Shown here in pieces: positions 1,974 to 61,990 of a stretch of DNA of 64,000 bases. A program made the translations under genes and the position numbers. How positions within the stretch are numbered: the first letter of the stretch is position 1; every line of letters begins with the position of its first letter. Source of the stretch: Eledone cirrhosa (taxonomy: Eukaryota). Below the pieces are notes generated by a model, which made no database searches, was not told where the DNA came from, and saw only the letters and a list, made by a program, of their open reading frames with translations. The DNA is taken from assembly GCA_964016885.1 (NCBI GenBank), contig OZ024743.1, positions 317,564,001-317,628,000 on the forward strand, given 5' to 3'.

Positions 1974-2005
<32 letters not shown>

Positions 2006-2129
2006 CATATTAATAAGAGGAATTCCAACTTTGTCTGATTTACTCGTTTTATTTACAATCCTTTAAAATATATATAATATGGTATTATAATGAAATAGTA
2101 TGATAGAATATTAAATTCTAAGTGTTAAT

Positions 2130-2168
2130 TGAACAAGTACTTTCATGCTTTCGCAATCTTCAGGTTCA
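2130..2168 (-). ncRNA. Minimal type I hammerhead ribozyme, family A (antisense arm)
   Basis: Exact reverse complement of 2205-2243. Confidence 0.7.
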
Positions 2169-2204
2169 TGATATGTGGTGACAGTCGAGTTTGCAATTTT
2201 CTCA

Positions 2205-2243
2205 TGAACCTGAAGATTGCGAAAGCATGAAAGTACTTGTTCA
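2205..2243 (+). ncRNA. Minimal type I hammerhead ribozyme, family A
   Basis: UGAAC-CUGAAGA-U-UGC-GAAA-GCA-U-GAAA-GUAC-UU-GUUCA: 5-bp stem I, GNRA-capped stem II, palindromic AGUACU stem III. Confidence 0.72.
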
Positions 2244-2396
2244 ATTAACACTTAGAATTTAATATTCTATCATACTATTTCATTATAATACCATATTATA
2301 TATATTTTAAAGGATTGTAAATAAAACGAGTAAATCAGACAAAGTTGGAATTCCTCTTATAAATATAATCTTCTATACACAATCATACACACCCGT

Positions 2397-4542
<2,146 letters not shown>

Positions 4543-6924: not shown

Positions 6925-7363
<439 letters not shown>

Positions 7364-7369
<6 letters not shown>

Positions 7370-7808
7370 TATGTACACGTACATACATATATCGTTTTTG
7401 GTGCACCCGGCCGATTAACCCACCCGATATGCAAATTGAGCTACTCAGCCGTTAATATGCATAAGGTAAGTATATACGTTCAACAATCTGGCAGGAAGGC
7501 ATACGTTGCTGACGATAGCTAATAAGCTTGAAACTAGTACAGCGTTCCTTTGTCAGTGTTGAACAAACGAGCAACGATGGTTGCTAGACACTACGGCTTA
7601 ATACAGGATGTTTGTTTACAAACACACCGAGCATTATAATAAATGTTCGGTGAATCCATACGTACATATATATATATGTGTGCATGTATGTATATATATA
7701 TACATACTACTGTACGTCTGTATACATATATGTATGTACGTGTACATACTTATATTTAAGTCGTACTAAGTGTGGGAAATGAAACTTCGTTTCATTTTTT
7801 TCCGTTTA
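7364..7808 (+). mobile_element. Hammerhead-bearing element family D (copy 1)
   Basis: Homologous to 50458-50905 (-) and 50906-51240 (+); a short inverted copy of its own 3' region sits at 7364-7390. Confidence 0.8.
7503..7545 (+). ncRNA. Minimal type I hammerhead ribozyme, family D
   Basis: ACGUUG-CUGACGA-U-AGCU-AAUA-AGCU-U-GAAA-CUAG-UA-CAGCGU; palindromic ACUAGU stem III; GUA triplet. Confidence 0.8.
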
Positions 7809-8586
7809 TATATATATATATATATTTATCATCATCATCGTTTAACGTCCATCTTCCAATAAAAAGTTCTTTATTCTTTTATCGCTTCCTTTATTTCCTT
7901 CTTCCCCCTTCCCTCCTTAGTCCTTCTACCCCAGTTCTTCTTCTTTGTCGGCGTCTTTTCTCGCCCACCCGAGGCTGCCCTTTGGCCCCTTGTAGCCTCA
8001 GTACCCCCACCCCTCCCCTAGTCTATGATAGATTTGGCGGACTCCGCTTTTTTAGCAGTTGTGTTAGACCTCGGATACTTGCCCCCTTTTCCGACCGCTC
8101 CCACTATTTTCCGTGCCTTCTATATTTCTTAGTGGCACTTATGCCTTATTTTCTCGTTTCAGTATTTCTTTCTTCTCTTTTCTTTTGGGCGGGGTGGATT
8201 CTGAATTTATTTTTCCGTTTTCTACCTTTACTTCGTACGAACTTTCATGTAGCTTGTATAAGATCTTTTGTAGCGCGGCGGTACCTTTAGAGTTAGCATT
8301 AGTATTTTTTTTTTCGGGACTCAGAATTATTATCTCGTACTAGTTTACTTTGCTGCACTGGGTGGTTGCTGGCCTTGTGCCCGGGATAGAAACCTTTATT
8401 ATTTATTTCGTGGTAGTTTCTTTAGTATTTTGGCCCCATTTGTTGACCCGTCACCGTATGATTTACGTACTTATACCTCTTAAAAGGGTCCTTGCCTATT
8501 CCGTCCCACCTAGTTTATTTACTTATTTCGTTATTTCTTTATTTCTTTATTTCTTTCTTTATTTATTTATCTAGCCTAACAATAGC

Positions 8587-33385: not shown

Positions 33386-34439
33386 GGGAGATTTATGCTC
33401 TTAATGCCATGATGTATCTTGGATTGTAGAGATTTTGTAAAGTATTCAAGTCTTTTAATAGACATTTTCAAACATTCTTTTACTGTTTTCAGTAATCTGA
33501 CTGTGGCCATGCTGGGGCACCACTGAATATATTCATAAAAATAATAATATGAGTCCATGTGGTTTGGGATTCAGTCTCATTGTGCAACACCTTAGGTAAG
33601 TGTCTGCTACTATATCTTTGGTTTGACTAATGCTTTGGGAGTGCAATTTGGTAAATAGAAACTGCAGAAACCTGTTATGGGCTCTTCAGCTGAGCCCTGT
33701 CAGATGGCAATAGGAAGAGCATCCTGCAAAAGCTATGCCAAAATGTCAAGGAGACTCTTCAGTTGTGTCACGGGTACAACAACTTCTCTAGTGTTGATCT
33801 ACACAATAAATGCACCCAGTACACTCTGTAAAGTGGTTGCTGATAGGAAGAGTATCCAACTGTAGAACACTTTCCAAACAAAGAATTGGAAAGACGTTTG
33901 AGTTGTCTCAAAGATATGAAATCCTCCCTAGTACTGGTATCCTGATAAAAAAGGAGTGTAGTTGTGGGTTCCTGGCCAGCCAGAGCACCCGGTATATTGT
34001 GGGGATGTAAGATAGAGGCTCCCCAACTGATCTGAGAGGTGAGTGGCTCCACTTGGGTGCTGACTCAGACTATGACGGTCTGTCCAACCCTTGCCTTTAC
34101 ATAATGATATGTATGTCTGTGATTTCTGTTTGTTTGTCCCTGTCTCTATGTCCTCTCTTTTTAGTGGATTGACAAAAAGAAATTGATAAAATATGTATCA
34201 GGCTTGAAAAATATGTACTGGGATCTTTATAATTGACTAAAGTCCCAATAAGGCAGTGCTCCAATATGGCCACAGTCTAATTGTTGCAATCAGTAAAAAA
34301 AATCATTGATGTCTTATAATTCCTCTATATTATTTTGTCATCTTTCTATTTTCAGCTGATCACTTCTGCAAGCCAGATATGAATTATCTGCAATATTGAG
34401 CTGGCTCTTTGATTCCTTTTTGGATTACTGAATGCACTC

Positions 34440-34910
34440 ATGAAATTTCCATTGTCTGATAGCCTTCATGCAAAAAAGGGAAGTTTCTTTTTGGATCCCA
34501 TGAAGACGAAAAATTTCTATCTTGTAATCCTCTTTGCCGCTTCTACTATAGTGGCCATTTGGCTGCTGAGTAACCCGACCCCTAATTTTCAGACCATCGT
34601 TAAGGAAACCAACAAACACATCAACAGCATCAAGAATTTACCTTCCAGCATCAAACATGCCAAAGAGTTAGATGATGTAGATCCGGAGTATTTAGAGCTG
34701 CTTGGCTTTCGTGATGGCAGTGGAGGCCGAAGAGAGGATGATGAGCGATTTCCTAGCAAGGACAATGTTAACATACCTGTTATTGCTAGCGGTATTGAGC
34801 CTGGTCAATATAAGCAGGTTATAGACTTACTGGAGTCAGTACAGCGCTATTTACCTCATAATCTATTGATTTTATATGACCTGGGCATAGATCCTTCGGA
34901 AAGTTTCATG
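34440..34910 (+). CDS. DUF1647-like type II membrane protein, coding exon 1 (start may be ATG 34500)
   Basis: Acceptor TTTTCAG at 34355; hydrophobic anchor FYLVILFAASTIVAIWLL; motif LLESVQRYLP...LILYDLG; donor ATG|GTGAGT, phase 0. Confidence 0.88.
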
Positions 34911-34936
34911 GTGAGTTGTATTTTAAAAAGTACTCT

Positions 34937-35137
34937 TTAAACCTTTTGATACTAACCTTACCAAAACTAATTCTGGTTATATAAACAAAACCACCCATTT
35001 TAAAGGGTTCCTATTTAAATTAAAATCTTCCTGGATAATTTTATATATGAATACTGTGTTAAGTTACAATCTTAGTAAATTCCTCAATATTAATTGAAAT
35101 AGTGTATTTCATTAAAATAAAGTCATGAAAGAGTTAA
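34937..35137. mobile_element. TTAA-flanked piggyBac-like MITE
   Basis: TTAAACCTTTTGATAC ... GAAAGAGTTAA; inverted relative of 39900-40159; partial copy from 35833. Confidence 0.55.
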
Positions 35138-38528: not shown

Positions 38529-39065
38529 GAAATACTGAATCGCTATGGTGGAGTTATTTGGGCGGACAGCTCAGAGCATTTCATAACAAACAAGATGAAC
38601 CAGAGTGTAACTCAGGCTCAAACTGTAGGTCTTGTAGCTTGGACCATTAAAGCCCCAACATCATCATTAACTCACCCTAAAATGTTTCAGTATTTTAAAA
38701 CAAAGCAAGAGTATTATTATTTTCATCGAGCAGTTGAATCGTCTCATTTAATTGTATTCAACCTGGATCGTATCCACCGCGAATTGATGTTACCATGGGT
38801 ACGGTGTGCTCTGACAGAGGAGTGTATCAACCCAACAGGGGCACAGAATGTCGGTTGTAATTACCAGCGTAAACCTTTATTTCGTTATTCCGGTTGTCAC
38901 CATTACGACATGTCAGCTTTGAATGTAATCCTTGGACTTTTGTTTAATTTCAATATAAAGCAGTACACCGCCCAACAACAAGTTTTTGGTGTGTTGAACA
39001 AAGAAAGAACATCAGGAAAAAATTTGACTGTGCCATTATATATTTCGAAATTGAGGTATTTGTAA
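38529..39065 (+). CDS. DUF1647-like protein, last coding exon
   Basis: TTTTAG| acceptor; EILNRYGGVIWADSS...THPKMFQYF...PWVRCAL..ECINP.G...GCHHYDMSALNVIL; TAA at 39063-39065. Joined CDS is 374 aa (354 aa from ATG 34500). Confidence 0.88.
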   Translation, partial: EILNRYGGVIWADSSEHFITNKMNQSVTQAQTVGLVAWTIKAPTSSLTHPKMFQYFKTKQEYYYFHRAVESSHLIVFNLDRIHRELMLPWVRCALTEECINPTGAQNVGCNYQRKPLFRYSGCHHYDMSALNVILGLLFNFNIKQYTAQQQVFGVLNKERTSGKNLTVPLYISKLRYL

Positions 39066-47481: not shown

Positions 47482-49512
47482 ATCATCATCATCATCATCA
47501 TCAACGTTTAACGTCCGTGTTCCACGCTTGCATGGGTTTGGACGGGGGTAGTCCCACTTGAGGCAAGAGTGATTGTCTTGCTCGCATAGGACTGTCTGGC
47601 AGGTTTTCTACAGTTGGATGCCCTTCCTAACACCAACCACATTTACAGTGTGGGTCTGGGAGGTTTTTACCGTGTTGCCTACACGGCCACATTACAGCGT
47701 GGACTGTGTGTTTTTTTTGTCGTGACACCTACACGATCTCATTTGTTTCGGCCTGGATGGCGCGGCACCAACATAACTTTACATAGAATGGGGTGGTGTG
47801 GATGGGGTGGGGGTGGTGGGACGGGGTGTATTTTGTTAGAGATGCCTACTGGCTGCAGTAGGTTTTACTATATATTTAGGTAAGGCGGGTCTTCTCTGTT
47901 ACTGAGTACCGCCAAAGGTCTCGGTCCAGTGACATTGTCTTGGAGAGGTGTAAGTGTGTGATGTCGGAGTTTATCAGCTCGTCCCAGGTTTTTCTAGGTC
48001 TGCCTATTCCGTGACTACCGTCTATCTTTATTGCCCTGCACTTTGTTATACAGCTATCGACTTTCATGCGCATCACGTGTCCATACCAACGTAGCCTTCT
48101 CTCGAGTAAACAACATCTGATCCCTCTTATCTCTAATTTTTTCCTTAGCTCGTTTATGCTTTGCCGTTCACGTATATTACTGTTACACATCCAGCGGAAC
48201 ATGCAAGCTTCGTTCCTCTCTAGTCTGCGTATATCCTCTGCACACAATGCCCAGGTCTCACTGCCATGCAACATTGCTGTTCGTATGCAGGCATCGTACA
48301 ACCTGCCTTTCATTTTTAGGGAGAACCCTTTAGCAGCTAATAGTGGTATAAGCTCTCTGAACTTTTTCCAACCAGTTCTGACTCTAGCTACAGTACTTTC
48401 AGAGCACCCTCCCCCACTGCTGATTTTATCGCCCAGGTAACGGAAGCTGTCCACTATTTCTATAGAACCCTCTACGCAATTGAAAGAGCTAGTATTTTGT
48501 GGGCACTTGCTGCTACTTATTGCACCAGAACACCGGCCACATGTAAAATCTATGTTCTTAGTTAGCTTACCTGTGATCCCACTACATCTTTTATGCACCC
48601 ATACTTTGCATTTAGGGCATAAAATGGAGTTTCTACCTACGCCTTTCCTACACACCGAGCACGACCATTTCCCAGAAGGGACCGCCGCCTTGTTTTCTTT
48701 CCTACAAACTAGAACTTTGGTCTTAGCCAGGTTAATTTTAAGTCCTTTTGTCTCTAGGCCGTGCTTCCATGTTTGGAATTTCTTCTCTAGCTCGGCCATT
48801 GATTCCGCTATGAGTGTCAGGTCGTCTGCGTATAGGAGTTCCCATGGGCAGCCTGTCTTGAACTCCTCTGTTATAGCCTGAAGGGCAATAATAAATAGTA
48901 GGGGGCTGAGAACAGCCCTGATGGACGCCAACTTTTACGCTAAACTCTTCACTATATTCGTTGTTAATTCTAACCTTGCTGACTGTTTCTTTATACATGG
49001 CTTGTATAGCCCTCACAAGCCATTCATCAACTCCTAGTTTTCTAAGAGCCCACCAGATAATGGAGCGGGGGACTCTGTCGAAGGCTTTCTCCAAGTCGAC
49101 AAAAGCTAAGTAGAGGGGTTAACCTTTAGCTAGGAACTTCTCCTGTAGTTGTCGTACTATGAAAAGAGCGTCTGTGGTACTTTTGCCTGACACAAACCCG
49201 AACTGCATTTCATCTAGGTCAATTCTCTCTCTGATTAGTTGTGCTATTACTTTTTCCGTGACCTTCATGACCTGGTCGATTAATTTAATGCCTCTATAGT
49301 TACTCCTATCTAGGGCGTCTCCTTTACCCTTATAACAGTTAACGATGATGCTGCTATGCCAGTCCTTCGGAACAACCCCATTCTGTACGACTTGGTTAAC
49401 TATGTGAGTGACCATGGTGTGTCCCACCGTGCCAGATGCCTTCAGCATCTCAGCAACTATTTCCGAAGGCCCAGCCGCCTTACCCGTCTTCATATCCTTG
49501 ATTGCCTTACTT
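47482..49512 (-). mobile_element. 5'-truncated RTE-clade LINE with PHD finger; disrupted RT
   Basis: NYRGIKL, QFGF, FVDLEKAFDRVP, GVHQG/LSPLLF, LLYADDL, FRYLG, HGSETW, RLRWYGHV, GRPRKTW; in-frame stop at ~49119; frameshift at ~48915; 3' UTR ending in (GAT)n. Confidence 0.92.
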
Positions 49513-49655
49513 ATTATACATATATATATTTGTATGTATATATAATATATATAATATAATATATATTTATTTGTATGTATATATAATATAATATATATAT
49601 ATATTTATTTGTATGTATGTATATATATATATATATATTTTGTATGTATATATAT

Positions 49656-50457: not shown

Positions 50458-50742
50458 AAACGGAAAAAATGAAACAAAATTTCATTTCTCACTCTTAGTA
50501 CAGCTGTTACTTAAATATAAGTATGTATACGTACATACATATATGTATACGTACATACATATATGTATACAGACGTATAGTAGTATGTATATATATATAC
50601 ATACATGCACATATATATATGTACGTATGGATTCACCGAACATTTATTATAATGCTCGGTGTGTTTGTAAACAAACATCCCGAATTAAGCCGTACAGTGT
50701 CTAGCAACCACCGTTGCTCATTTGTTCAACCCTGACAAAGGA

Positions 50743-50785
50743 ACGCTGTACTAGTTTCAAGCTTATTAGCTATCGTCAGCAACGT
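50743..50785 (-). ncRNA. Minimal type I hammerhead ribozyme, family D
   Basis: Identical motif to 7503-7545. Confidence 0.8.
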
Positions 50786-50987
50786 GTACCTTCCTGCCAG
50801 ACGATTGAACGTCTGAAAGTATATACTTTCCTTATGCATATTAACGGCTGAGCAGCCTAATTTGCATATCGAGTGAGTTAATCGGCCGGGGTACCGGAAA
50901 CGATAATGCAAATTAGGCTGCTCAGCCGTTAATATGCATAAGGAAAGTATATACTTTCAGACGTTCAATCATCTGGCAGGAAGGTAC

Positions 50988-51030
50988 ACGTTGCTGACGA
51001 TAGCTAATAAGCTTGAAACTAGTACAGCGT
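50988..51030 (+). ncRNA. Minimal type I hammerhead ribozyme, family D
   Basis: Identical motif to 7503-7545. Confidence 0.8.
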
Positions 51031-51267
51031 TCCTTTGTCAGGGTTGAACAAATGAGCAACGATGGTTGCTAGATACCGTACGACTTAATTCGGGATGTTT
51101 GTTTACAAACACACCGAGCATTATAATAAATGTTCGGTGAATCCATACGTACATATGTATATGTGTGCATGTATTTATATATATATGCATACAACTGTAT
51201 GTCTGTATACATATATGTATGTACGTATACATACTTATATATATATATTTATTTGTATGTATATATA

Positions 51268-51573
51268 TCATCATCATCATCATTTTACGTCCGCTTTTCC
51301 CTGCTTGCAAGGGTGGACGGGAACTGATTCTGGCTTTCTACAGCTGGATGCCCTTCCTAACACCAACCTCATTTTTACAGTGAGTGCCGGGTCCTTTGCA
51401 GTGGAATGATATGGACTCCAGTCACTATCAGCTCATTTCTACAGCTGAGTAAACTGGAGCAATGTGAAATAAAGTGTCTTGCTCAACGAAACAACACATC
51501 ACCTGGTCTGAGAATTGAACTCACAACCTTTTGATTGCAAAGCCAATGCTCTAACCACTAAGCCATGTGCCTC
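51268..51573 (-). mobile_element. tRNA-derived SINE (same family as 46847-47190)
   Basis: A box TGGCTTAGTGG, B box GAGTTCAATTC, shared body and (GAT)n tail. Confidence 0.8.
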
Positions 51574-51648
51574 CATCATATATATATTTATTGGTATGTA
51601 TACGTATGTGTATATATATATATATATATATGTGCCTTGTGGGACACC

Positions 51649-51675
<27 letters not shown>

Positions 51676-51679
<4 letters not shown>

Positions 51680-52585
51680 GTCCCACAAGACACTGTGTTG
51701 GGCCCACTTCTTTTCATCATCTACATTAATGACATTACTGACATCATCAAACACAGTAACATCAGAATCTTCGCAGATGATTCCAAGCTCCAAAGGGTCT
51801 TCAATGAGATAGGTGACCGGACTTGCCTCCAGTCAGACCTACTGGCTGTTATCCAATGGGCAGAGATGAATAATATGCTGTTGAATGAGGATAAATTTGA
51901 ACTAATCCACTTTGGAAAAAAGGATGTTCTGAAACTACCATACTCTCTTCCTTCGGGTGAAACTCTAGTGGCTTCCAATAACATCAGAGACCTGGGAGTA
52001 ATTGTGGACAACAATATAAGCTGGGCCACAACAAAGTTGATATGGCCCGCAGAATGTGTTCCTGGATTCTCAGAATTTTCCAGTTGAGAGATATCCACAC
52101 TGTTTTCCTTCTCTTCTCCACTTTTGCCTGACCCCACCTTGAATACTGTTGTCCACTGTGGTCAACCCACACGAAACAAAGTATCATGAAAGTTGAAGCA
52201 CCCCAAAGGTCAATTACAAAAAAGATAGATGGCATGACAGGCCTTGACTATTGGGGTCGATTAGAAAAGCTCAAACTTTATTCTCCTCAACATCGCTGTG
52301 AGCGCTACATTATCTGTATGATGTGGAAAATATTCCATCAGCTTAGCCCAAATGATATTGGCATCATCTTTAGTGTACACCCAAGCCTTGGGCCCCGTGC
52401 TATCCGCCCACGACAAAAATCCCACTTGCATCACATAACAACAATACGGCACAATTATTTCACCTCAATTGGCCCTGCACTCTTTAACATTACACCAAAA
52501 CACATCAAAGCAGAGACAGACCCTATCAAGTTCAAGAAGTCTTTGGATAAATTCCTTCAAGAAATCTTGGATAAGCCTCCTACAC
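51676..52585 (+). mobile_element. Diverged CR1/L2-group LINE fragment (copy 3)
   Basis: GVPQDTVLGPLLF...FADDS...; colinear with ~833-1750 but more diverged; frameshifting deletion at ~52030. Confidence 0.88.
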
Positions 52586-52833
52586 GTGGAGGTGCCACGG
52601 CAAAAAAGCACCCAACCCACGCTGTAAAGTGGACGTGTAGGCGCCACGGAAAAAAGCACCCAGCACTCACTGTAAATGAGGTTGGTGTTAGGAAGGGCAT
52701 CCAGCTGTAGAAACCAAGCCAGAATCAGTTCCTGTATGAGCAAGGCGTGGTCAGCCGACCAGACACTGCCAACAACAGGACAACCCGTCTAACCCATGCT
52801 AGCATGTAAGAACGGACGTAAAATGGTGATGAT
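52586..52833 (+). mobile_element. RTE/SINE-type 3' tail
   Basis: AAAAAGCACCC subrepeats, GGAAGGGCATCCAGCTGTAGAAA, ...ACGGACGTAAAATGGTGATGAT. Confidence 0.75.
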
Positions 52834-59574: not shown

Positions 59575-61990
59575 TAAAACGTCCTAGACTTAATTTTCAG
59601 CAATCACACTGACAATATCCACAATATTGCAGTGGAGAAAACTCTACTCTCTGATCATGACATGGTTCTCTGTGATCTGAGATTCCACCGTCCAATATAC
59701 AAACCCAATGTCATCTCTCCTGTCCATCCGTTTGACGCTATGGATTTCCACAATGCAAACATCTTGCACATGTCGACTGCTCCTTCACGCACACTCATAC
59801 ACCCACTAACATCAAAAAGTCCTGGCAGACATTTGTGGACACTGTTACAAACATATGTGTTTAACACACCCCATTAAGAACTATAAACAAATCTAAGAGC
59901 AGAATCCCTAGAAATAGAAAAACGCTCATCAGAAAAATTAAGAGAACGAACAAAAAAATCAACAAGCTGAAATACTGTCAGCAGCAACACATCAACTTGA
60001 CTGCCATTTCATCACTAGAGATTAAAAAACATAACCTCCAAAACAACATAATGTCCCTCATCAACAATCAGAGAAGAGCTGAAGAGGCCTGGGCCATTGA
60101 GAAGATCAAACTCAATCCCAAAGTGTTCTTTTCATTTGCAAAAAAACACAAAATCACTGGCTCTACTGTTGGCCCTCTAATTGATGAAAATGGCACTCTT
60201 CAAGACAATGCTAAAACCATGGGTGAGATACTGCAGAAACAATACTGCTCTGTTTTCAGCAATCCTGATATGGCCGATCTGGACTGTATCGGCGATGTTA
60301 TTCCCCATTACACCTTATCGGACATAACGTTTGGCGCCCCTGATGTCTTGGCGGCAATAAAGGAAATCAAGCATAATTCAGCAGTAGGTCCCGATAGGTT
60401 CCCTGCTTGTGTCTTGAAGGCGTGTCAACACCAACTTGCATCTCCTCTTGCCAATCTGTGGCGGAACTCACTGGATGCTGGATATGTGCCAGAAAACCTT
60501 CTATCCCAGTCTGTTGTCCCAGTTTTCAAAAAGGGAAACAAATCCCTTGCCGTGAATTACCGTCCAATCTCACTCACCTCTCATATCATTAAGGTATTTG
60601 AGAGAGTGGTGAGATCGCGAATGACTCACTTCCTTGAGAGTAACAATATGCTGAACTCCAACCAGCATGGATTCCGTAATGGAAGGGATTGCCTGACGCA
60701 GCTACTGCATCACTTTGATGACATTTTGAGAGCCTTGGGAGAGGGTTCCAACACTGATGTTATCTACCTTGATTTCAGCAAGGCCTTTGACAGGGTTGAT
60801 CATAACATTCTACTGAGAAAGCTGTCCAATATTGGTGTCACTGGAAAGCTGCTGCAGTGGATCAAGAGCTTCCTGTCAAACAGAACCCAACATGTTGTAG
60901 TTGAGGGAGTCAAATCAAGCCCAGCCAAAGTCAGTAGTGGGGTCCCACAAGGCACTGTGTTGGGCCCACTTCTCTTCATCATCTATATTAATGACATCAC
61001 TGACATCATCAAACACAACAACATTAAAATTTTCGCTGATGATTCCAAGCTCCAAAAGCTCATCAATGGCGTGGATGACCGGATAAGCCTTCAGTCAGAC
61101 CTACTGGCTGTTACCCAATGGGCAGAAAAGAACAACATGTTACTGAACGAAGACAAATTCGAACTGATCCACTTTGGAAAAGAGGATGCTCTGAAACTCC
61201 CGTACTCCCTTCCCTCCGGGGAAACTCTCGTGGCATCTAACAACATCAGAGACTTGGGAGTAACCGTGGACAGCAACATAAGCTGGACCACGCATATAAG
61301 CAGCAAAGTTGACATGGCCCGCAGAATGTGTTCCTGGATCCTCAGAACCTTCCAGTCGAGAGATTCCCGCACCATTATCCTTCTCTTCTCTACTTTTGCC
61401 CGACCACACCTTGAATACTGTTGTCCACTGTGGTCTCCCCACACGAAACAAAGTATCATGAAACTTGAAGCTCCTCAAAGGGCAATCACGAAAAAGATAG
61501 ATGGCATGTCAGACCTTGACTACTGGGGTCGATTAGAAAACCTGAAACTTTACTCACTCCAACGTCGCCGTGAGCGTTATATTATCTGCATGATGTGGAA
61601 AATGTTCCATCATGACTGCCCAAATGATGTTTACACCCAAGGTTTGGGCCGCGTGCTATCCGTCCCATTCAAAAATCTAAATCGCAACTCATAACAACAA
61701 TACGGCACAATTATTTCACCTCAATCGGCCCTGCTCTCTTCAACATCACACCAGGACACGTCAAAACAGAAACTGACCACACAAAATTCAAGAAGTCTTT
61801 GGACAAATTCCTCCAAGTAATCCCGGACAAACCACCCACACCCGGATATGTCTCCGCAAACAGTAATTCTCTTCTCGAATGGGCCATGGTGCCCAAATCC
61901 TGAATTGAAAGACTTCGCCAGGTGGTGCTATTAAGTTAGACATGGCCTGGGCCAATACTGGCCAAAACATTTCAAAGTTATTCAAAGTTA
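59575..61990 (+). mobile_element. 5'-truncated CR1/L2-group LINE (copy 2), disrupted
   Basis: APE endonuclease end NVLDLIFSN...LSDHDMV; frame break after ~59750; RT ORF 59997-61694; 16-nt deletion at ~61631 versus copy 1; (TTCAAAGTTA)2 tail. Confidence 0.92.

What the first reader, a model, noticed from the sequence alone, without database searches (positions are those of the whole stretch)
7364..7808. Family D looks like a discrete ~420-450-nt non-autonomous ribozyme retroelement with fixed ends
Seen: the copies at 7390-7808 (+) and 50458-50905 (-) begin at the same 5' point (TATCGTTT...CCCGGCCGATTAAC) and end at the same tail (...TTTCATTTTTTCCGTTTA). Each is preceded by an inverted copy of its own 3' region (27 bp versus ~335 bp). 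The 43-nt hammerhead is identical in all three occurrences while the flanks carry substitutions and indels. Inference: a defined retrozyme-like unit under selection on the ribozyme, not random 5' truncation of a long element.
Basis: partly seen in the sequence, partly recalled or inferred. Interest (0 to 1): 0.75.

Follow-up and report, generated by a model that had tools for sequence, protein, structure and literature searches.

The report
Penelope-copied hammerhead retrozyme, two start sites
This is one of thousands of copies of a 426-base protein-free repeat that carries a hammerhead-ribozyme sequence and lies in the genome as tandem runs and back-to-back pairs whose outer ends fall at two fixed points, likely because the enzyme of Penelope-type jumping genes copies its RNA from two internal start sites.

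Summary
Family D is real, but it is not a unit with fixed ends. It is a 426-nt repeat with a canonical type I hammerhead (5,150 exact hammerhead 36-mers genome-wide), in tandem runs and head-to-head pairs, mostly beside (TA)n. The shared 5' point is the repeat junction: only 3 of 136 and 2 of 111 sampled arms begin there. The fixed points are two 3' ends 53 nt apart (115 of 136 arms), and two-armed insertions nearly always use one of each (29 of 30). That matches the two internal reverse-transcription start sites shown in vitro for a Penelope-like element. None of 79 free 5' flanks runs into a Penelope ORF. Each unit carries a U6-like upstream motif plus TATA box. The identical 43-mer proves little: a longer identical run lies outside it. 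Selection on the ribozyme shows only weakly, between sister families. Self-cleavage, expression, circles and the partner element are untested. Verdict: a new member of the known non-LTR retrozymes. The scan noted the same architecture and promoter before, on other DNA of this genome.

The parts
7364..7389 (-). Short inverted arm of insertion D1; its outer end is the short (S) end, unit position about 373, abutting (TA)n at about 7326-7365
   Evidence: Sequence; same geometry in genome samples
7390..7806 (+). Main arm of D1: one unit, positions 1-426, ending at the tailed (T) end followed by (TA)n
   Evidence: 94% to another full unit
7428..7440 (+). U6-like upstream motif TATGCAAATTGAG (octamer core at 7429)
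   Evidence: Similar motif at -76 to -78 of U6 genes at three loci and at -77 of the best U6atac gene; absent from four U2 upstream regions; function inferred
7470..7477 (+). TATA box GTATATAC, 42 nt after the octamer (46-48 nt in the U6 genes)
   Evidence: function inferred
7478..7564 (+). Long hairpin that extends hammerhead stem I
   Evidence: Fold z -2.29 for 7470-7580; pairs kept across sister families
7503..7545 (+). Type I hammerhead motif: stem I 6 bp, CUGACGA, stem II 3 bp over a U.U mismatch, GAAA, 2-bp stem III with palindromic ACUAGU, predicted cut after GUA at 7539
   Evidence: Sequence; no Rfam match; activity not tested
7745..7755 (+). S site (unit position about 373): first fixed 3' end
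   Evidence: 54 of 136 arms end at positions 368-378
7756..7806 (+). Tail of about 50 nt with a 3' hairpin and T-run; T site (position 426) at its end
   Evidence: 61 of 136 arms end at positions 417-426
50459..50905 (-). Main arm of insertion D2 (subfamily with 8-nt insert after the TATA box): positions 1-426, T end; hammerhead 50785-50743
50906..51240 (+). Inverted arm of D2, positions about 40-373, S end; hammerhead 50988-51030

Best explanation
Family D is a non-coding, hammerhead-bearing 426-nt tandem repeat (a non-LTR retrozyme) that is likely transcribed from a U6-like promoter inside each unit and likely inserted into (TA)n by a Penelope-like reverse transcriptase/GIY-YIG endonuclease, which would start copying at two internal sites of a multimeric or circular RNA. 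Shown: the repeat unit, copy number, tandem and head-to-head layout, two fixed 3' ends 53 nt apart, their one-of-each pairing, random 5' ends, (TA)n flanks, no ORF, and long open Penelope-type ORFs in the same genome. Inferred: both target strands are nicked, one nick primes at T and the other at S on the same RNA, each cDNA runs back through the repeat for a variable distance, and the two are joined at their 5' ends. The template must be continuous across the hammerhead cut site, the T-run and the promoter, so it is an uncut read-through multimer or a ligated circle; the DNA does not tell which. Long arrays grow further by local duplication after insertion.
For: 5,150 exact hammerhead 36-mers and 8,411 exact flank 36-mers, backwards controls 0. 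Head-to-tail junctions. 115 of 136 arms end at S or T; of 41 two-armed insertions 30 have both ends classifiable: 29 S+T, 1 T+T, 0 S+S (27 of 28 without two local duplicates; binomial p 3e-8). Second sample picked by T end only (70 of 80 matches fetched): of 41 opposite arms 27 end at 368-380 and none at T. (TA)4 within 12 nt of 82 of 110 S/T ends against 8 of 50 free 5' ends; 88 of 111 and 30 of 70 arms cross the cut site; rare variants shared between opposite arms 7 of 290 and within an arm 23 of 300, against 15 of 10,101 between insertions. PMC11167929: a Penelope-like protein nicks and extends both strands, starts at two internal RNA sites that bound the tail, and does not need hammerhead cleavage. 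Long open RT plus GIY-YIG frames of 938-1,096 codons stop to stop; one such family also shows a short and an about 50-nt longer end, and both occur in a two-armed copy at window 2000-2400. U6-like motif and TATA box; no run of four T between the predicted start and position 416 in D or in the sister unit.
Against: No autonomous element sharing sequence with the unit was found among 50 GIY-YIG loci of 150 listed. Octamer-to-TATA spacing is 4-6 nt shorter than in the U6 genes, and a polymerase III transcript should stop at the six-T run before the T site and lose the promoter, so read-through has to be assumed. A cluster of 5' ends at the predicted start (13 of 132 at 114-124) was not repeated (2 of 111). 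Only 7 of 71 two-armed insertions show any shared rare variant, and gene conversion between arms could produce some. In the paper the start site was described as not homologous to the target and alike for both strands; here both sites end in TAT that matches the target. 14 of 41 opposite arms in the second sample end elsewhere, several probably spurious self-matches of the TA-rich part.
Confidence: 0.8

Rival explanations
1. Circular template specifically: hammerhead-cut monomers are ligated and the reverse transcriptase rolls round the circle, as proposed for metazoan retrozymes. This is a sub-case of the best explanation.
For: Arms cross the cut site and exceed one unit; units within an arm share rare variants 23 of 300 times against 15 of 10,101; circles were shown in coral, mussel and axolotl (PMC7229834).
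Against: An uncut multimer from a homogeneous array predicts the same; the palindromic 2-bp stem III implies slow, dimer-dependent cutting (PMC4209133); uncut RNA was the main substrate in vitro (PMC11167929).
Confidence: 0.45
2. One reading: a discrete linear unit with fixed 5' and 3' ends, copied whole like a SINE.
For: Both window copies start at the same point.
Against: 3 of 136 and 2 of 111 5' ends at that point; 59 of 132 arms longer than one unit; two different 3' ends.
Confidence: 0.02
3. 5'-truncated pseudo-LTRs of a long autonomous Penelope element.
For: Tail, inversions and partial tandems are Penelope traits (PMC8557442); other hammerheads in the window do belong to such elements.
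Against: Upstream of a unit lies another unit; 0 of 79 free 5' flanks match Penelope proteins; none of 50 GIY-YIG loci has the unit as its terminal repeat.
Confidence: 0.06
4. A satellite or fold-back element spread at the DNA level, with the hammerhead a passenger.
For: Some long arrays show dimer or four-unit periodicity that arose after insertion; the hammerhead decays at the flank rate within the family.
Against: Does not explain two fixed 3' ends with one-of-each pairing, random 5' ends or structure-keeping changes between families.
Confidence: 0.07

Closest known systems
Metazoan non-LTR retrozymes (PMC7229834, passages and Discussion read; bioRxiv 10.64898/2026.07.22.740005, parts 1-3 of 5 read)
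   Same: Type I hammerhead in each unit of a short, low-GC, non-coding tandem repeat; thousands of copies; Penelope elements proposed as partner; U.U mismatch at the base of stem II as in axolotl HHR_Amex2.
   Different: The parts read do not describe two fixed ends, two-armed insertions or an internal promoter; no cephalopod was named in the passages searched; circles and cleavage are shown there and untested here.
Penelope-like elements, notably PAc of the green anole (PMC11167929, parts 1-2 of 4 read; PMC8557442, passages read)
   Same: Tail bounded by two internal start sites, inverted 5'-truncated arm, partial tandems, (TA)n preference.
   Different: No ORF; tail 53 nt against 30-40 nt; strict one-of-each pairing of the two start sites within an insertion; both sites end in target-like TAT.
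Newt satellite 2 and schistosome satellite (seen only as a passage in PMC2220036)
   Same: Hammerhead satellite with an internal promoter: snRNA-type in the newt, polymerase III in the schistosome.
   Different: The newt promoter drives polymerase II; here the motif resembles U6/U6atac and not U2 upstream regions; this family is dispersed at thousands of sites.

Membership tests
Non-LTR retrozyme | Type I hammerhead motif in each unit | tested here: met
   Core and stems read from sequence; no Rfam model matched
Non-LTR retrozyme | Short tandem repeat of 150-450 bp, dimers to multimers | tested here: met
   426-nt unit, arrays up to about 50 units
Non-LTR retrozyme | Low GC (under 45%), non-coding, no LTR layout | tested here: met
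   GC 37%, longest ATG frame 55 aa; layout
Non-LTR retrozyme | Self-cleavage | not testable with these tools
   Needs in vitro transcription; only 1 of 9 Xenopus dimers cleaved in the preprint
Non-LTR retrozyme | Expressed as linear and circular monomer RNA | not testable with these tools
   No raw RNA reads were available
Penelope-like element (autonomous) | RT plus GIY-YIG ORF | tested here: not met
Penelope-like element (insertion signature) | Tail at one end, inverted 5'-truncated arm, partial tandems, microsatellite target | tested here: met
Penelope-like element (insertion signature) | Terminal sequence shared with an autonomous family | tested here: inconclusive
   None among 50 of 150 listed GIY-YIG loci, out of 10,597 candidates
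U6-type (type 3) polymerase III gene | Upstream motif at about -77, TATA at -30, T-run terminator | tested here: inconclusive
   Motif, TATA and T6 present; spacing 42 against 46-48; predicted start not marked by 5' ends
Plant LTR retrozyme | Type III hammerhead in two LTRs | tested here: not met
   Type I motif, tandem layout

The most novel reading that the evidence does not exclude
A Penelope-type protein dimer holds one retrozyme RNA at two sites 53 nt apart and primes one nicked target strand at each, telomerase-like, through a UAU alignment with (TA)n, so every insertion is built as two cDNAs joined head to head; the RNA is a circle made by leaky read-through from a captured U6 promoter that travels inside the unit.
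Probability: 0.3. Interest if true: 0.65.

Novelty: new member of a known kind. Interest (0 to 1): 0.4.

Why it matters
The class is known and its link to Penelope-like elements is in print as a proposal. This family adds a direct insertion footprint for that link, and the one-of-each pairing of the two start sites bears on an open step of Penelope retrotransposition, second-strand synthesis. A 426-nt protein-free RNA with mapped start sites is a convenient substrate to test it. The U6-like motif suggests how such RNAs are made. The value is tempered because the scan has recorded this architecture and promoter several times in this genome.

Tried and rejected
Fixed 5' end: rejected. 5' ends marking the predicted transcription start: 13 of 132 at positions 114-124 (window chosen after the fact, p 0.008 for 11 nt, 0.10 for 15 nt), not repeated in a sample picked by the T end (2 of 111), so treated as a sampling effect of the hammerhead probe. 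5' ends at the cut site: 8 of 132 at 151-165 and 5 of 111 at 148-165, no excess. A-to-I editing scars: A>G at 51 sites against T>C at 33 on the hammerhead strand, a weak hint only. Dimeric circle as source of ABAB arrays: at C1:49584017 the opposite arm lacks most A- and B-specific variants, so local duplication after insertion fits better. Expression: no RNA holder listed; four runs of unknown kind, contigs only, show presence in three organism labels and nothing on ends or strand. Rfam: no match at gathering score in the window, only TA-rich chance matches at 7300-7900. Partner search: no shared terminal sequence among 50 GIY-YIG loci. The newt promoter paper was not held. Literature searches: octopus with hammerhead ribozyme, 4 listed, none on such an element by title and abstract start; cephalopod, Penelope, non-autonomous, ribozyme, 0 papers; retrozyme, polymerase III, promoter, non-LTR, 2 listed, not read. 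Supplements of the papers, and Repbase or Dfam entries, were not seen and may already list this family.

Full report
Observation. The two copies exist as described, with small corrections. D1 is 7390-7806 (+), preceded by an inverted 26-nt arm; D2 is 50905-50459 (-), abutting an inverted arm from 50906 to about 51240. The hammerhead is ACGUUG-CUGACGA-U-AGC-loop-GCU-U-GAAAC-UA-GUA, cut, CAGCGU: a 6-bp stem I, a 3-bp stem II over a U.U mismatch and a 2-bp stem III with a palindromic loop. PMC4209133 (passages) describes this as the canonical metazoan type I form that cleaves as a dimer. Rfam gave no match. The identical run over the hammerhead between D1 and D2 is 54 nt; a 69-nt identical run lies outside it, so identity alone says little.

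What it is. The host genome is 3.0 Gb; I infer a cephalopod-like animal from size and repeats and from the scan's notes, not from a record. It holds 5,150 exact hammerhead 36-mers and 8,411 exact flank 36-mers, controls 0. I mapped 92 insertions on the first 54 Mb of contig 1, picked by the two probes; numbering starts at 7390. Of 136 arms, 54 end at positions 368-378 (S) and 61 at 417-426 (T); 5' ends are spread over the unit, 3 in positions 1-9. Of 41 head-to-head insertions 30 have both outer ends classifiable: 29 S+T, 1 T+T, none S+S; two of the 29 are local duplicates. D1 and D2 are both S+T. A second sample was picked by a T-end pattern alone (80 matches, 70 fetched): 2 of 111 5' ends at the junction; of 41 opposite arms 27 end at 368-380 and none at T. 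S/T ends abut (TA)n in 82 of 110 cases, free 5' ends in 8 of 50. No free 5' flank (0 of 79) matches four Penelope-type proteins; 4 flank pairs share junction-abutting sequence, which I did not follow up; the unit has no frame over 55 aa and 37% GC.

Template. Arms cross the predicted cut site (88 of 111 in the first sample, partly picked on the hammerhead; 30 of 70 in the second), and 59 of 132 and 15 of 70 exceed one unit. A cut linear monomer cannot give these. Rare variants are shared within an arm 23 of 300 times and between opposite arms 7 of 290 times, against 15 of 10,101 between insertions (185 insertions; arrays over five pieces left out). Pairwise distance is about 3% within insertions and 6% between. 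This points to one RNA for both arms but does not separate a circle from an uncut multimer. Long arrays with two- or four-unit periods look amplified in place.

Machinery. PMC11167929 (parts 1-2 of 4) shows a Penelope-like protein nicking and extending both strands of AT-rich DNA and starting at two internal RNA sites that bound the tail, without need of hammerhead cleavage. PMC8557442 (passages) lists tail, inverted arm, partial tandems and (TA)n bias as Penelope traits. This genome has long open RT plus GIY-YIG frames, most with a cysteine motif before the nuclease that fits the Neptune description in that paper; no tree was built. One family shows a short and an about 50-nt longer end, both present in a two-armed copy at window 2000-2400. 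No family among 50 loci shares terminal sequence with D, so the partner is not identified.

Promoter. Each unit has ATGCAAAT at position 40 and a TATA box at 82. U6 genes at three loci carry ATGC(A/T)AAT(T/G)AG at -76 to -78 and TATA at -30; six of eleven fetched copies in the C19 cluster have it displaced by an insertion, and two other U6 hits lack it at that place. The best of eight U6atac hits has ATGGAAATTAGG at -77 (seen by eye, missed by my pattern) and TATA at -30; four U2 upstream regions lack it. No four-T run lies between the predicted start and position 416. Against: spacing is 42, not 46-48; read-through of six T is required; the cluster of 5' ends at the predicted start did not repeat. 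Internal promoters are reported for newt and schistosome hammerhead satellites (passage in PMC2220036).

Selection on the ribozyme. Within the family: no consistent signal; only 22 of 42 flank-picked units keep the exact 36-mer. A variant in laid contigs led to sister families (18,224 matches of an 18-nt motif, periods of about 430-540 nt, down to 73% identity). Against a 484-nt sister the hammerhead differs at 4 of 43 positions, all tolerated by the fold (the free core position, loop II, and both sides of one stem I pair), while positions 178-267 differ at 25 of 90; the promoter region (5 of 51) and the S region (2 of 48) are as conserved. On 15 distinct rows 97% of cells pair and two pairs change on both sides. 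The rows are related and most were picked by a pattern covering 18 of the 43 positions, so this is modest support.

Comparison and verdict. All sequence-level features of non-LTR retrozymes are met (PMC7229834, passages and Discussion; bioRxiv 10.64898/2026.07.22.740005, parts 1-3 of 5); cleavage and circles are untested. It works like a Penelope passenger and is not an autonomous Penelope element. The parts of those papers that I read do not describe paired start sites or a U6-like promoter in retrozymes; searches listed no paper on a cephalopod case. The scan's notes record the two-armed layout and the promoter on other DNA of this genome; they are leads, not support. New member of a known kind; interest 0.4.

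Noticed in passing
window about 2000-2400: Two-armed terminal fragment of an autonomous Penelope-type family (hammerheads at 2210 + and 2163 -), with one short end and one about 50 nt longer; the same hammerhead lies downstream of RT/GIY-YIG frames in L308, L309, L312, L317, L319.
   Followed up: partly
window 7030-7326: Another two-armed element: a palindrome 7030-7258 plus a one-sided extension of about 66 nt ending in the (TA)n into which D1 inserted; hammerhead-like motif at 7113 (-).
   Followed up: no
window 6596 (-), 6810 (+), 10246 (-), 36226 (-): Further hammerhead-like motifs of other families, the first two as an inverted pair.
   Followed up: no
G000:C1:51772395-51793780 (L128-L130): Array of about 50 units, part of it with a four-unit higher-order period: a retrozyme turning into a satellite.
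   Followed up: partly
G000:C1:19314626 and C1:49584017: Arrays with strict ABAB alternation in which one unit of each pair often has a stem lesion in the hammerhead.
   Followed up: partly
L177-L187 (G000:C19, about 31.78-31.84 Mb): Tandem U6 cluster in which 6 of 11 fetched copies carry the same insertion at the TATA box that displaces the upstream motif.
   Followed up: no
window 34413-34940 and 38529-39065 (+): Two long frames that look like exons of a membrane-anchored host protein; no Pfam match at E 0.001.
   Followed up: partly
window 47876-49604 (-), 51512-52710 (-), 59865-61694 (-): Broken LINE-like reverse transcriptase frames (recognised from recalled motifs, not searched).
   Followed up: no
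L320 end of element; L236, L246, L255, L259, L321: A Penelope-type family whose 3' region has a TTTCG-loop hairpin resembling the D tail, and one copy ending CCGTTTATATA like the T end; may be chance or a lead to the partner.
   Followed up: no
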